Positions 59,201-61,838 of a stretch of 64,000 nucleotides of DNA are shown here, in pieces. This DNA is from the human T2T-CHM13v2.0 reference genome, Homo sapiens. How positions within the stretch are numbered: position 1 is the first letter of the stretch; each line of letters starts with the position of its first letter. Below the pieces are notes generated by a model. It searched no databases. It had not been told where the DNA came from and saw only the letters and a program-made list of their open reading frames with translations. Position numbers and translations under genes: made by a program. The stretch lies in the NCBI RefSeq assembly GCF_009914755.1, contig NC_060930.1; one strand, given 5' to 3'.

Positions 59201-61838
59201 ATCCTTTCTTTTTGCTTTCCAGTATCAGTAAATGCCTAACATGTATTCATTTTCCCCCTATATTAAATGCTTAAAGACTTTTCAATTCCATGTTCAGTTT
59301 TAAATCATGAAAAGTGGTTGTTGGTCATTTATGTTGTAACGTGATGGCTTTCCGTCTTCTTTAGGAATAAACATTACAACGGTGGCTATTCCATTGGTGC
59401 TCCTTGTTGTCCTGGTGTTTGCTGGAATGGGGATCTTTGCAGCCTTTAGAAAGTATGGTGACTTTACATGTTTAAATTTCTTCTCTAATTATGCGAACAA
59501 TAAAAAACCAAAAAGTTTATTCTTCAGAAATGCATATGTACAAAAGCAGCATGGCTTCTTTCAAAATAAAATGTTAACTTATATTTTACAAACAAGTTAG
59601 ATAAAAGTAGAAATGATCGAGTATTACTTTATTAATCTTTTTTTATAGACAGGGTCTCCCTGTGTCTCCCAGGCTGGAGTGCAGTGGTGAGATTGCTCAA
59701 ACTCCTGGGCTCAAGCAAACCCCCTGCCTCAACCTCCTGAGTAGTTAGGATTACAAGCATGTGCCACCATGCCCAGCTAATTTTTTTATGTTTTGTAGAG
59801 ATGGGATCTTGCTTTCTCACCCAGGCTGGTCTCAAACTTCTGGTCTCATTTGATCCTCCCAAAGCACTGGGATTATAGGCATGAGCCACCGCACCCCACC
59901 ATGTATTACTTTATAAGCAGTTCTTGTCATTTAGAGACCTTTGGTAAAGACTTAACCTTTGAGTATTGTTGAAGTATCCTGAAATTGATATATTGCTTTA
60001 GAAGTATCTGTGCTTCTCCTCCCTGAAGAGTAAAAGGAATATTAAATAGGCTGCTTGGGGTATCACCAAGCTGCCCCGTAACTCAGCCTCCCCAAGCCTG
60101 TTTCCTTATGTATAAAATATAGTTTACCCAGATGAATTCTGAATCTCTTCCAGAACCCTGAGATCCATGTTTATTTTGACAAATGTTAGATGTTGGATCT
60201 AAACAAAAAATGGAAAGTATTCTGAAGTTTTCTCTTCTTATATTTTAAGCAACTTCAGAATCTATAATGTGTATATTAGTACAAATAGAATGAAGAATAG
60301 TTTCTGCCATCATGAGAGAAGGTACAAAAGTCTCTGGTTCAGGTAGATATTCGTAAGTTAAAGCATGCCTTAGTGTAATGTGCTTGTATGAAATGCTTCT
60401 AAAGACACCCACAGTTTTGGACTGGAGTATAGTAGAGATGAAGTGAGACCATGTGGTCATGAGGAATTGCTTCAGGATGACTGCATGAGCTAGTGATAAA
60501 CTTAATAAGGCACTGATTTCTAATATGCAAAATAAGATTAGTATATATTCTTCTAGTGAAATCTTGTGACCTTTCTTATAAATGAGATAAATTTATAGAT
60601 AATTCTACATATTTGTATGATTTTCTAAAGCACATGGCAGCTGCCATCTCATTTAATTCTCACATCAACCCTATGAGGTAAGTACTATTATGATCCTTAT
60701 GTTATATAGGGAGAGAGAGGCAGATACATTGGCTTATAAATATTCAGTAGGACTTTTTGTCTTGATAGGAAGAAGAAGAAAGGAAGTCCGTATGGATCAG
60801 CAGAGGCTCAGAAAACAGGTTGGTTGAAAACTCTATCTACAATTTTATCTGTCTTTGAGGAAGGGACAGGATCTGCTGATTGAAAGCATAAGGAGGCCAG
60901 TGGCCCACATTTATTTGGTTAAAAGACATAAGCCCTGTAGCCTTTAAAGTAGCATATCTATAAGGAAGAAATTTATTGTGTTCTGTCTCTTTATTTTAAT
61001 GGCCATTTTACTTTTGTTCAATGTCATCCCCTATCATTTGTCAACATCCTTTTTTCTTGGCCACTGGAGTTTAGGCCACGACACTGTCTGCCATCAAGGA
61101 GGTATGACAAAAGCCTTATCAGTGAACTGAAGTAGGCCCGTGTTGTTAGCATCTGCAGGCCTGTGCTGTACTTTCCACCCTGAGAAAGTGAGAAAAAGAC
61201 CAGGCAGGGCTGGTGTGCAGGTTTCAGATAATCCTGCACACCAGCCCCGTCTGGTCTTTTTCTCACTTTCCCAGACACAGGTGCCCAAGCAATGAGTTAG
61301 CCATGGTCCAGAGAGAGAGGGCAGTGGGGCAGGACCCCTGAGAAAGCTCAGGGACCATTTGAGACTCCACCTCCCCAGGGTCTAAACACCAGCTGCAGTG
61401 TCTCCTCTGCCTCACAGATGCCATGCCAGTGCAGATTGTCGGAGACCATACCCAGATGATCTCACAAAGGGAGAATCTGGGACCTGATGAGGGCAAAATA
61501 CCTTTTAAAGGCACAGCGGAAAGCATGGTTAGAGTAGTGTTTGCTGTTGTGGTTAATGACCTTGGCATGCTGTTCTTAGCACACACACCTGAGGAGGACA
61601 TTGATCACTGTCAGCTGTCAGGAGGCAGCCTGACCTCTGACTCATCAAGGAACATGTTCTGGAGGACGCGCATTACATTTCTGACATATTCATTTGGTTT
61701 ATGTTACCTTTATTCCAGACTGTTGGAAGCAGATTAAATATCCCTTTGCCAGACATCAGTCAGCTGAGTTTACCATCAGCTATGATAATGAGAAGGAGAT
61801 GACACAAAAGTTAGATCTCATCACAAGTGATATGGCAG
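20014..61838 (+). CDS. DCBLD1: DCBLD1, spliced partial CDS (exons 2-14 in window; first and last exons outside)
   Basis: 13 AG/GT-bounded exons of 213,135,52,73,134,41,216,125,148,108,88,50,120 nt join into one open frame ([14 protein letters not shown]...[10 protein letters not shown]). Domain order CUB-LCCL-FA58C-TM-tail is the DCBLD architecture, and the sequence is recognised as DCBLD1. Confidence 0.97.
20520..20900 (-). mobile_element. L2 3' remnant
   Basis: ttattcatttgacaaatatttattgaa ... acatttgagcagagacc ... aacagcaagtgcaaagg. Confidence 0.65.
21319..21373. repeat. Perfect 27-bp tandem duplication
   Basis: gattgttttttaatccctaggagcatt x2. Confidence 0.95.
21932..22065 (+). mobile_element. 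Alu left monomer (FLAM-like)
   Basis: Single monomer flanked by TSD aaaggcagaaaa. Confidence 0.85.
25397..25692 (+). mobile_element. AluJ-type inserted in a MIR (MIR ~25230-25810)
   Basis: TSD aaaatgggca; MIR core gaccttgagcaaattatttaaac...aaaatggg continues as ataatagtatctacc after the Alu. Confidence 0.9.
26574..26629. repeat. Compound (CA)n/(CAGACA)n microsatellite
   Basis: Seen directly. Confidence 0.92.
30569..30855 (+). mobile_element. AluJ-type
   Basis: Alu dimer with A-tail. Confidence 0.9.
31268..31568 (-). mobile_element. AluS-type
   Basis: polyT + reverse Alu; TSD acct(t)acagttt. Confidence 0.92.
32319..32620 (+). mobile_element. AluY
   Basis: AluY diagnostics; TSD gaaagtatt at 32310-32318 and 32621-32629. 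Confidence 0.92.
32877..35103 (-). mobile_element. Full-length THE1 MaLR element: LTR 32877-33213, internal 33214-34760, LTR 34761-35103
   Basis: Two ~340-bp direct repeats (tgtatt...catgctgctgataaggacatacctgagactggg...tatca) flanking ~1.55 kb of THE1-int-like sequence. Confidence 0.93.
36063..36197 (+). CDS. DCBLD1: Exon 3, C-terminal part of CUB domain
   Basis: tttttag|GTCCA...CCAG|gtataa; [45 protein letters not shown]. Confidence 0.97.
36375..36590. mobile_element. MER30 hAT MITE
   Basis: caggtgtgtccaatcttttggcttccctgggccacatt ... gggttggacaagctt. Confidence 0.85.
37772..37823 (+). CDS. DCBLD1: Exon 4, start of LCCL domain
   Basis: gacag|ATTTA...TACAG|gtaagt; [18 protein letters not shown]; phase 1 in, phase 2 out. 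Confidence 0.95.
37972..38204. mobile_element. MER58A-like hAT MITE
   Basis: TIRs gtcagcaaac / gtttgctgacccctg. Confidence 0.82.
38442..38640. mobile_element. MER20 hAT MITE
   Basis: cttggcactattgatattttgg ... tctccagacattgccaaatgtc; TSD-like gtctaaag/gtctagag. Confidence 0.85.
38683..38967 (-). mobile_element. AluJ-type
   Basis: Reverse Alu; TSD ctatgact. Confidence 0.88.
39529..39867. mobile_element. Possible Tigger/MER46-type MITE
   Basis: ta-cagg...cctg-ta termini with weak TIRs; family call uncertain. Confidence 0.4.
40447..40748 (-). mobile_element. AluS-type
   Basis: Reverse Alu; TSD gaatcctaatttt. Confidence 0.92.
40815..41125. mobile_element. MER33/MER3-like hAT MITE
   Basis: aatacggtagccactagccac ... 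atgtggctcccattatatttctat. Confidence 0.75.
41607..41679 (+). CDS. DCBLD1: Exon 5, LCCL domain
   Basis: ttccag|CAAAT...AGAGAT|gtaagt; [24 protein letters not shown] (CPAGC LCCL motif). Confidence 0.96.
43025..43597 (-). mobile_element. MLT1-type MaLR solo LTR
   Basis: tgtattag...ttgctgcataa...cttagaggcttaaa...gagtctgcctccaca. Confidence 0.75.
43730..43980 (+). mobile_element. L3/CR1 3' remnant
   Basis: gtggataaaagttacaggga...atataaggaataa...cctagtcactgaaaatgt...ccatttgtcaggga resembles the CR1/L3 tail. Confidence 0.5.
45049..45646 (+). pseudogene. Local duplicate of 41337-41636 (end of intron 4 + first 30 nt of exon 5), interrupted by an AluY
   Basis: Alignment by eye: both copies run from tcttagaatcaagtaaa to ttccagcaaattctgcccagctggttgtagagacgt, with scattered substitutions and indels in the 5' part and an identical last 83 nt. 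Confidence 0.95.
45090..45383 (-). mobile_element. AluY inside the duplicated segment
   Basis: gcaagctcc and ttcacgccattctc diagnostics; TSD GGAAGCTC(G/A)TTGTTT at 45075-45089 and 45385-45399; site is empty in the donor copy (41363-41377). Confidence 0.93.
46040..46078. mobile_element. Half MADE1 (Hsmar1 mariner MITE)
   Basis: aatggcaaaacccacaattacttttgcatcaaccta matches one Hsmar1 TIR arm. Confidence 0.75.
46478..46813 (-). mobile_element. MER1B-like hAT MITE
   Basis: Perfect 8-bp TSD CACTAGAC (46470-46477, 46814-46821); reverse complement of the 3019 copy. Confidence 0.9.
48070..48424 (-). mobile_element. Old MLT1-type LTR
   Basis: ccactccaaaacttagtggcttaaa...agcaagtcacatgg...ttaccaca. 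Confidence 0.6.
48502..48635 (+). CDS. DCBLD1: Exon 6, LCCL domain
   Basis: tttcag|ACCTC...AGGGA|gtaagt; [44 protein letters not shown] (CxAAIHAG LCCL motif). Confidence 0.97.
49070..49116. repeat. 19-bp direct repeat, 28-nt period
   Basis: aaagatggcctttgttaac at 49070-49088 and 49098-49116. Confidence 0.9.
53427..53467 (+). CDS. DCBLD1: Exon 7 (41 nt), end of LCCL / linker
   Basis: tttcag|TGGTT...AATG|gtaagg; [13 protein letters not shown]; bridges phase 2 to phase 1. Confidence 0.93.
53504..53787 (+). mobile_element. AluY, missing first ~9 nt
   Basis: Perfect 16-bp TSD AAGAATTTGATATTTT (53488-53503, 53788-53803); most CpGs intact. Confidence 0.95.
53904..54010 (-). mobile_element. Alu left-monomer fragment with long polyT
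   Basis: T~29 then agagtctcattatgttgcccaggctgatctcaaactcctgggc. Confidence 0.82.
54862..55077 (+). CDS. DCBLD1: Exon 8, FA58C/discoidin domain
   Basis: ttttcag|GTTGC...ACAG|gtgcag; [20 protein letters not shown]...WSPGQARL...[14 protein letters not shown]. Confidence 0.97.
55497..55621 (+). CDS. DCBLD1: Exon 9, discoidin domain
   Basis: tacaag|GAATT...AAAAG|gtaaga; [42 protein letters not shown]; uncommon AAG acceptor. Confidence 0.95.
55726..56010 (+). mobile_element. AluJ-type
   Basis: Diverged Alu dimer. Confidence 0.9.
56031..56338 (+). mobile_element. AluSx-type inserted at the tail of the previous Alu
   Basis: cacccgaggtcaggagttcaagaccagcctggcc; A-tail. Confidence 0.92.
56910..57057 (+). 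CDS. DCBLD1: Exon 10, end of discoidin domain
   Basis: ctatag|GTGTT...CAAG|gtaggg; [49 protein letters not shown]. Confidence 0.97.
57160..57267 (+). CDS. DCBLD1: Exon 11, Ser/Thr-rich stalk
   Basis: ctctcag|GTAAT...ACAG|gtagag; [36 protein letters not shown]. Confidence 0.94.
58251..58556 (+). mobile_element. AluS-type
   Basis: Full dimer; TSD-like aataacac. Confidence 0.92.
59365..59452 (+). CDS. DCBLD1: Exon 12, transmembrane helix
   Basis: ctttag|GAATA...AGAAA|gtatgg; [30 protein letters not shown]. Confidence 0.96.
59638..59898 (-). mobile_element. AluJ-type with small internal deletions
   Basis: Reverse Alu; TSD gtattactttat. Confidence 0.88.
60769..60818 (+). CDS. DCBLD1: Exon 13, polybasic juxtamembrane segment
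   Basis: ttgatag|GAAGA...ACAG|gttggt; [16 protein letters not shown]; phase 2 in, phase 1 out. Confidence 0.92.
61181..61273. other. Long near-perfect inverted repeat (41-bp arms, 11-nt loop)
   Basis: 61181-61221 is the reverse complement of 61233-61273 at 38/41 positions. Confidence 0.95.
61719..61838 (+). CDS. DCBLD1: Exon 14, cytoplasmic tail
   Basis: ttccag|ACTGT...GGCAG|gtaagt; [40 protein letters not shown] (includes basophilic RxxS site RHQS). Confidence 0.96.

What the first reader, a model, noticed from the sequence alone, without database searches (positions are those of the whole stretch)
61181..61273. 93-nt hairpin in intron 13: candidate de novo pre-miRNA or cruciform
Seen: TGAGAAAGTGAGAAAAAGACCAGGCAGGGCTGGTGTGCAGG - TTTCAGATAAT - CCTGCACACCAGCCCCGTCTGGTCTTTTTCTCACTTTCCCA, 38/41 bp complementary. 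In the sense RNA the three differences are one G-U wobble and two A-C mismatches. The stem length and 11-nt loop are close to Microprocessor substrate geometry (~35-bp stem, loop of 10 nt or more). I see no TSD and do not recognise a MITE. An overlapping mini-hairpin at the left foot (actttc...gaaagt, 61170-61189) hints at origin by replication template switching, a known route to new miRNA hairpins. Alternatives: ADAR substrate (A-C mismatches are favoured editing sites), splicing modulator between exons 13 and 14, or unstable DNA palindrome.
Basis: partly seen in the sequence, partly recalled or inferred. Interest (0 to 1): 0.7.

Follow-up and report, generated by a model that had tools for sequence, protein, structure and literature searches.

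The report
Single-copy intron hairpin hiding splice site
A real, single-copy 95-base inverted repeat in an intron of the human DCBLD1 gene likely arose by a one-step DNA copying slip and is probably one of many thousands of such ordinary hairpins; it matched no microRNA list we could check, and its one oddity is that it is predicted to hide an unused splice site.

Summary
The hairpin is real: 61180-61274, 42-bp arms, 39/42 complementary, 11-nt loop, folding z = -13. It is single-copy: four genome searches found only the two arms, while a control transposon hairpin gave 2,063 candidates. There is no target-site duplication, so it is not a multicopy MITE. It is not rare either: 2 of 20 arbitrary 10-kb stretches of chr6 held an equally good single-copy hairpin. 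The best reading is a neutral template-switch inverted duplication; published work finds only 57 of 6,054 such genic hairpins in miRBase. The microRNA case is weak: the stem is 42 bp (optimum about 35), no CNNC or loop UGU, no Rfam family, and no entry in two catalogues checked with controls. New here: the 3' arm ends exactly at a strong acceptor-like site (AG 61273-74) that outscores the true exon 14 acceptor. Its use would add a stop after 8 codons, and the stem is predicted to bury it (unpaired 0.05). But 11 equally pyrimidine-rich unannotated sites in the window have no such lid, so masking is probably incidental. No primate alignment, small-RNA or editing data could be consulted.

The parts
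61180..61221 (+). 5' arm, 42 nt, purine-rich outer half
   Evidence: single-copy with its partner
61222..61232 (+). 11-nt loop; no UGU/GUG
61233..61274 (+). 3' arm, 42 nt, reverse complement of the 5' arm at 39 of 42 positions
61183..61183 (+). A of the basal A.C mismatch (partner C61271), 5' neighbour G
61204..61206 (+). G.U wobble (61204/61250) and A.C mismatch (61206/61248); the latter faces a CpG in the 3' arm (61248-61249), the usual mark of CpG decay (inferred)
61255..61274 (+). Acceptor-like site: pyrimidine tract (16 of 17) plus CAG, AG at 61273-61274, the last bases of the stem; not used in the supplied RefSeq annotation
61185..61193 (+). Donor-like site (GT at 61188), 7 of 9 matches to a recalled consensus, buried in the stem
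61298..61300 (+). In-frame TAG reached 8 codons in, if exon 13 were spliced to 61275 (444-nt extension of exon 14)
61170..61189 (+). 6-bp mini-hairpin overlapping the left foot; outcompeted by the main stem; chance-level alone
61160..61165 (+). Outer 6-mer complementary to 61276-61281: possible remnant of a longer original repeat (post hoc)
60819..61718 (+). Host intron 13 of DCBLD1 (900 nt)
   Evidence: supplied annotation; splice dinucleotides and open reading frame checked

Best explanation
This is a single-copy inverted repeat of 42 bp in DCBLD1 intron 13 that likely arose when a replicating polymerase briefly switched template and copied one arm backwards, and that has likely drifted neutrally since. 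Shown: the repeat, its uniqueness in the genome, no TSD, three transition differences between the arms, and hairpins of the same class in arbitrary DNA. Inferred: a fold-back or strand-switch copy made both arms identical in one step; point mutations (one likely CpG decay) then gave 3/42 differences, about 7% (95% range 1.5-21%), which would place it tens of millions of years back in primate history if the arms were not re-homogenised. Predicted: in DCBLD1 pre-mRNA the stem forms as soon as the 3' arm is made, buries a donor-like and an acceptor-like site, may be bound or lightly edited by dsRNA proteins, and is spliced out and degraded with the intron, without a selected function.
For: Only the two arms match genome-wide: BLAST-type searches with the hairpin and both flanks each gave 1 candidate; a pattern search at up to 3 mismatches gave 1 forward and 1 reverse hit, the arms themselves; a control multicopy hairpin gave 2,063 candidates. 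No TSD. Same-class hairpins in 2 of 20 arbitrary 10-kb stretches (arms 42 and 37 bp, 1 mismatch each), both single-copy; extrapolates to about 31,000 genome-wide, 95% range 3,800-112,000. PMC10710096 (parts 1-3 of 6 read): 53,666 putative switches in genic regions of the primate lineage, 6,054 miRNA-sized, 57 in miRBase. PMC7954356 passages: switch loci are enriched in T-rich pyrimidine tracts, which would account for the tract in the arm; that study describes direct-plus-inverted micro-repeat patterns, and the foot here has such repeats (mini-hairpin plus outer 6-mer jointly 0.5% of random places, post hoc).
Against: No primate or population sequence was available, so the sudden appearance of one arm and the absence of conservation are untested. 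The background sample is 200 kb from one region of chr6 and holds only 2 events. The stem ends exactly at a strong acceptor-like AG, about 0.04% by chance for an end and 0.6% for anywhere in an arm (post hoc). The genome search warns that very common words are skipped and old diverged families may be missed.
Confidence: 0.68

Rival explanations
1. Splice-site lid: the stem is kept because it hides a strong poison acceptor at 61273-61274. Without it, exon 13 would splice to 61275, adding 444 nt with a stop after 8 codons and likely triggering nonsense-mediated decay of DCBLD1 mRNA.
For: The site has 16 of 17 pyrimidines; only 12 of 2,142 unannotated YAG sites in the window reach that. A small matrix built from the 13 annotated acceptors scores it 7.9, rank 13 of 4,409 unannotated AGs, above 11 of 13 true acceptors and above the exon 14 acceptor (5.5). 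It lies 445 nt upstream of the true acceptor, so it is made first. Predicted unpaired 0.05 with the 5' arm, 0.80 without it until about 40 nt more is made; the lowest of the 12 sites. Structure lowering exon selection is documented for Alu exons (PMC2639721 passages).
Against: The other 11 such sites are unannotated as acceptors and have no lid (unpaired 0.35-0.96). No YTNAY branch-point match at -18 to -40, and another AG at 61243 lies in between, whereas the true exon 14 acceptor has a match at 61681. Without the 5' arm, downstream sequence still half-pairs the tract (unpaired 0.36). T-rich tracts are enriched at switch loci anyway. The matrix is crude; no MaxEnt or SpliceAI score was run.
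Confidence: 0.1
2. Young microRNA: Drosha/DGCR8 crops the intronic stem, or splicing to the 61274 AG makes a 5'-tailed mirtron whose 3p product is about 61253-61274.
For: Sense-strand intronic position, very stable stem, 11-nt loop; 81 of 99 intragenic switch-born miRBase loci are sense-intronic. The 3' end abuts an AG as in 5'-tailed mirtrons, and the intron would be 456 nt, within their usual under-3-kb range (PMC4556696 passages). A basal UG fits 2 of 15 sense registers.
Against: Stem 42 bp against an optimum of about 35; no CNNC in 15 of 15 registers, no loop UGU, and no basal UG at the registers that fit the loop. No Rfam family reaches its gathering score (best 42.5 against 95.5 bits). 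Not among Friedlander 2014 candidates or Wen 2015 human mirtrons. The AG is not an annotated acceptor and is base-paired to the last base. Prior 0.9%.
Confidence: 0.07
3. Functional ADAR element: the stem is selectively edited at its A.C mismatches or recruits ADAR to a nearby site, like the Gabra-3 intronic editing inducer.
For: 42-bp duplex with two A.C mismatches; A61206 has a 3' G neighbour (ADAR neighbour preferences recalled). Intronic stems can induce editing at a distance (PMC3479170 passages). Low-level incidental editing is plausible.
Against: The mismatches are what neutral transitions give, and one faces a CpG. The Gabra-3 inducer is a 66-bp stem conserved from human to chicken and about 150 nt from its site; this one is shorter and at least 362 nt from any exon. 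A search for DCBLD1 with A-to-I gave 2 papers, unrelated reviews by their listing.
Confidence: 0.05
4. Relic of an old, low-copy DNA transposon (MITE) whose other copies have decayed beyond detection.
For: MITEs form such hairpins, and one multicopy hairpin lies in the same window. The search tool states that its counts are lower bounds.
Against: 1 candidate against 2,063 for the control; no TSD; arms only 7% apart, too young for all sister copies to be unrecognisable (inference); flanks also unique.
Confidence: 0.06
5. DNA-level element: a cruciform or lagging-strand hairpin that makes the locus fragile.
For: Each DNA strand folds at -44 to -47 kcal/mol. The gene lies between ROS1 and GOPC (supplied annotation), whose fusion deletes this interval (recalled).
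Against: Short arms, an 11-nt spacer, mismatches and 51% GC; instability rises with longer arms, higher identity and shorter spacers (PMC7999016 passages). GOPC-ROS1 breakpoints lie in those genes' introns, not here (recalled).
Confidence: 0.04

Closest known systems
Template-switch-born intronic hairpins (Monttinen, Frilander, Loytynoja 2023, PMC10710096; Walker et al. 2021, PMC7954356)
   Same: Single-copy, near-perfect short inverted repeat, miRNA-sized, in the sense strand of an intron, few later point changes, T-rich tract.
Canonical pri-miRNA (Microprocessor substrate)
   Same: Long stem with a loop over 10 nt in a host intron.
   Different: Stem 42 rather than about 35 bp; no CNNC or loop UGU; no Rfam family; absent from the catalogues checked.
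5'-tailed mirtron (Wen et al. 2015, PMC4556696)
   Same: Hairpin whose 3' end is a pyrimidine tract plus AG.
   Different: The AG is not an annotated splice acceptor, is fully paired with no 3' overhang, and DCBLD1 is not in the human mirtron table.
Structure-masked cryptic splice sites (e.g. non-exonising Alus, PMC2639721)
   Same: A stable stem is predicted to cover a splice-like signal.
   Different: Not Alu-derived; use of the site on unmasking is untested.
hAT/Tc1 MITE hairpins (MER1-like, MADE1; names recalled)
   Same: Short inverted repeat forming an RNA hairpin.
   Different: No TSD, single copy.

Membership tests
Template-switch hairpin | Adjacent near-perfect inverted repeat of 15 nt or more | tested here: met
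   39/42, 11-nt spacer
Template-switch hairpin | Local origin: no dispersed copies, no TSD | tested here: met
   control
Template-switch hairpin | One arm appears in a single step on the primate tree | not testable with these tools
   No primate genomes held; not found by recalled hg38 coordinate in the great-ape event tables, which fits an older event or a wrong coordinate
Canonical pri-miRNA | Stem about 35 bp | tested here: not met
   42 bp, 38 above the basal A.C; optimum
Canonical pri-miRNA | Apical loop of 10 nt or more | tested here: met
   11 nt
Canonical pri-miRNA | Basal UG, apical UGU, CNNC, mGHG motifs (redundant; one can suffice) | tested here: inconclusive
   CNNC 0 of 15 registers; no loop UGU; UG in 2 of 15 sense registers, neither fitting the loop; mGHG not scored
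Canonical pri-miRNA | Discrete ~22-nt mature and star reads, 2-nt overhangs, AGO loading | not testable with these tools
   No read data; absent from the Friedlander 2014 table
Known miRNA family (Rfam 15) | Score at or above gathering threshold | tested here: not met
   0 of 22 listed matches; best 42.5 against 95.5 bits
5'-tailed mirtron | Hairpin 3' end at a used splice acceptor | tested here: inconclusive
   Acceptor-like AG at the 3' end but not in the supplied RefSeq exon list
5'-tailed mirtron | Listed with diced small-RNA reads | tested here: not met
   DCBLD1 0 hits in Wen 2015 tables with gene-symbol column, chr6 control 19 hits; 0 hits in PMC10508058 supplements, no control run
MITE / DNA transposon | Multiple dispersed copies | tested here: not met
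   1 candidate against 2,063
MITE / DNA transposon | Target-site duplication | tested here: not met
   None of 4-20 nt; 2-3 nt TSDs not scanned, but the flanks shown share none
MITE / DNA transposon | Match to a Dfam consensus | not testable with these tools
   No Dfam library
ADAR substrate | Long duplex with A.C mismatches | tested here: met
   (predicted fold)
ADAR substrate | Observed A-to-I editing | not testable with these tools
   No REDIportal or RNA-seq; literature search uninformative

The most novel reading that the evidence does not exclude
A single template-switch mutation created an antisense lid over a strong poison splice acceptor in DCBLD1 intron 13. The hairpin silences an NMD-triggering splice choice, and editing or variants that loosen the stem would tune DCBLD1 levels. 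Template switching would then be a one-step source of splicing silencers, not only of microRNAs.
Probability: 0.1. Interest if true: 0.6.

Novelty: new member of a known kind. Interest (0 to 1): 0.22.

Why it matters
As it stands, little: it is one example of a common class of primate intronic hairpins, and the base rate for such hairpins being catalogued microRNAs is about 1%. [quoted passage not shown] It also suggests a cheap genome-wide test: whether switch-born hairpins cover strong cryptic acceptors more often than composition predicts.

Tried and rejected
MITE origin: rejected (control). Known RNA family: none; the Rfam hits are structure-only. Mini-hairpin as a sign of template switching: chance-level alone, 8%. 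11-nt direct repeat 61178-61188/61336-61346 as a TSD: rejected, it overlaps the arm and has a 2.5% post hoc chance. An ATG ORF at 61423-61737 as a hidden exon fed by the cryptic acceptor: the protein search returned 2 unspliced 104-aa ORF calls and no longer spliced form (the tool calls the latter weak evidence). Literature: DCBLD1+intron+hairpin (4 papers), DCBLD1+novel miRNA (4), DCBLD1+A-to-I (2); seen as listings, plus passages of one; none describes this hairpin. Supplements: PMC10710096 gave 0 hits even for 'chr6', so it is uninformative; its Dataset S2 was unreadable and the 6,054-locus list is not among the files seen. PMC7518892 plasma intron peaks: no DCBLD1. PMC7954356: 0 hits for two 6-digit coordinate prefixes; 16 looser hits in its event file were not all viewed. 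Look-ups by hg19/hg38 position rest on gene bounds recalled from memory. Londin 2015 and Fang and Bartel 2015 were not read. In the background count, AT-only hairpins (L010, L023, L025) and arms under 20 bp (L015, L025, window 27301) were dropped; the sample stayed at 200 kb of chr6.
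Full report
Observation. The arms are 61181-61221 and 61233-61273 with 38 of 41 complementary positions, and one more pair (C61180-G61274) makes 39 of 42 around an 11-nt loop. In sense RNA the differences are A.C at 61183/61271, G.U at 61204/61250 and A.C at 61206/61248. The fold is far beyond chance for this composition (-82.9 kcal/mol, z = -13.1, 0 of 200 shuffles) and persists in contexts up to the whole 900-nt intron (mean pair probability 0.92-0.95). 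The antisense strand folds as well, so the structure says nothing about strand.

Copy number. Genome-wide DNA searches with the hairpin, and with each half plus 280-430 nt of flank, each gave one candidate place and only self-matches. A pattern search with the 5' arm at up to 3 mismatches found exactly the two arms. As a positive control, a weaker hairpin in the same window (46570-46700) gave 2,063 candidates, 40 scored, at 83-88% identity; I recall it as a MER1-type hAT element. No flanking duplication of 4-20 nt was found. A multicopy MITE is therefore rejected; Dfam itself could not be consulted.

How unusual. I scanned 20 arbitrary 10-kb stretches of chr6 (110-129 Mb) with one rule. Leaving out AT-only repeats and arms under 20 bp, 2 of 20 held a comparable hairpin (arms 42 and 37 bp, loops 23 and 11 nt, one mismatch each); both are single-copy. 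Two per 200 kb extrapolates to about 31,000 per genome, 95% range 3,800-112,000, from a small regional sample. This agrees in order of magnitude with PMC10710096 (parts 1-3 of 6 read): 53,666 putative template switches in genic regions of the primate-to-human lineage, 31,007 forming new stems, 6,054 miRNA-sized, 57 of them in miRBase. The hairpin is a member of a common class.

Origin and age. A unique, adjacent, near-perfect inverted repeat without TSD is the expected product of template switching. All three arm differences are transitions and one faces a CpG in the other arm, as neutral decay would give. Three in 42 is 7% (1.5-21%), which by recalled primate divergence rates points to tens of millions of years, unless the arms were re-homogenised. 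The locus was not found by recalled hg38 coordinate in the great-ape event tables of PMC7954356, which fits an older event but is weak. These were picked after looking and are at most a hint of a multi-step switch. The decisive before/after comparison with other primates could not be run.

MicroRNA. Microprocessor measures about 13 nt from the base and about 22 nt from the loop, so about 35 bp is optimal and other lengths give inaccurate cuts (PMC7174388 passages). Here the stem is 42 bp. Over 15 cut registers per strand there is no CNNC; a basal UG fits 2 sense registers, neither placing the product next to the loop; the UGUG flagged by my script lies in the stem, not the loop. Natural miRNAs often carry only some motifs (PMC10954719 passages), so this lowers the claim without excluding it. 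Rfam gave 22 matches, none at gathering score. The Friedlander 2014 candidate table has 107 chr6 rows and no chr6 entry starting 1178 (the three hits are an identifier and one chr10 locus). The Wen 2015 human mirtron table has no DCBLD1, nor do the supplements of PMC10508058 (no control) or PMC7518892. miRBase, MirGeneDB and read data were not available.

The 3' arm ends in a pyrimidine tract and CAG whose AG is the last two bases of the stem. It has 16 of 17 pyrimidines, reached by 12 of 2,142 unannotated YAG sites in the window. A crude matrix trained on the 13 annotated acceptors scores it 7.9, best in intron 13, rank 13 of 4,409 unannotated AGs, above the true exon 14 acceptor (5.5) and 11 of 13 true acceptors. 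Splicing exon 13 to it would add 444 nt in frame with a TAG at 61298-61300, 8 codons in, a likely NMD target. The stem is predicted to bury it (unpaired 0.05, against 0.80 without the 5' arm until about 40 nt more is transcribed), and also a donor-like site at 61188. Chance for such a site is about 0.6% anywhere in an arm and 0.04% at an end, post hoc. Against function: 11 equally pyrimidine-rich unannotated sites lie open (unpaired 0.35-0.96); there is no branch-point consensus at the usual distance and another AG at 61243 intervenes; downstream sequence half-covers the tract even without the 5' arm (0.36); and switch loci are enriched in T-rich tracts anyway. Among tens of thousands of hairpins, a hundred or more would carry such a site by chance. 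The same geometry resembles a 5'-tailed mirtron, but that needs the buried AG to be used.

ADAR and DNA structure. A 42-bp duplex may be edited at low level, but the described intronic editing inducer is longer, deeply conserved and closer to its target (PMC3479170 passages), and no editing data were available. A cruciform is disfavoured by short arms, spacer and mismatches (PMC7999016 passages).

Verdict. Real feature; new member of a known, common kind; most likely a neutral template-switch hairpin (0.68). The splice-site lid (0.10) is the reading worth one minigene or one junction-database query. Interest 0.22.

Noticed in passing
window 46570-46700: Internal hairpin of a multicopy element (2,063 candidates genome-wide); recalled as MER1-type hAT-Charlie. 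Used as positive control.
   Followed up: partly
window 61423-61737 +: 104-aa ATG ORF inside intron 13 running out of frame into exon 14; two database ORF calls match at 99% and 89% over full length, the second likely another primate; no longer spliced form found. Probably neutral.
   Followed up: partly
window 61336-61354: Small hairpin holding an exact 11-nt copy of the left foot of the main hairpin (61178-61188), 158 nt apart; 2.5% by chance, post hoc.
   Followed up: partly
window 61314-61334: Purine-rich stretch 71% complementary to 61232-61252; an alternative partner for the 3' arm.
   Followed up: partly
L013:2520-2626 (G000:C6:114002520-114002626): Single-copy hairpin, 42-bp arms, 1 mismatch, 23-nt loop.
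   Followed up: partly
L020:9415-9499 (G000:C6:121009415-121009499): Single-copy hairpin, 37-bp arms, 1 mismatch, 11-nt loop; closer to pri-miRNA geometry than the finding itself. Not checked against miRNA catalogues.
   Followed up: partly
window 27301-27334: Perfect 14-bp inverted repeat with a 6-nt loop.
   Followed up: no
window 30783-31340 and 53745-53966: Closely spaced inverted Alu-like tails (72 nt at 82%, 48 nt at 77%); inverted Alu pairs are likelier ADAR substrates in this gene than the hairpin (inference).
   Followed up: no
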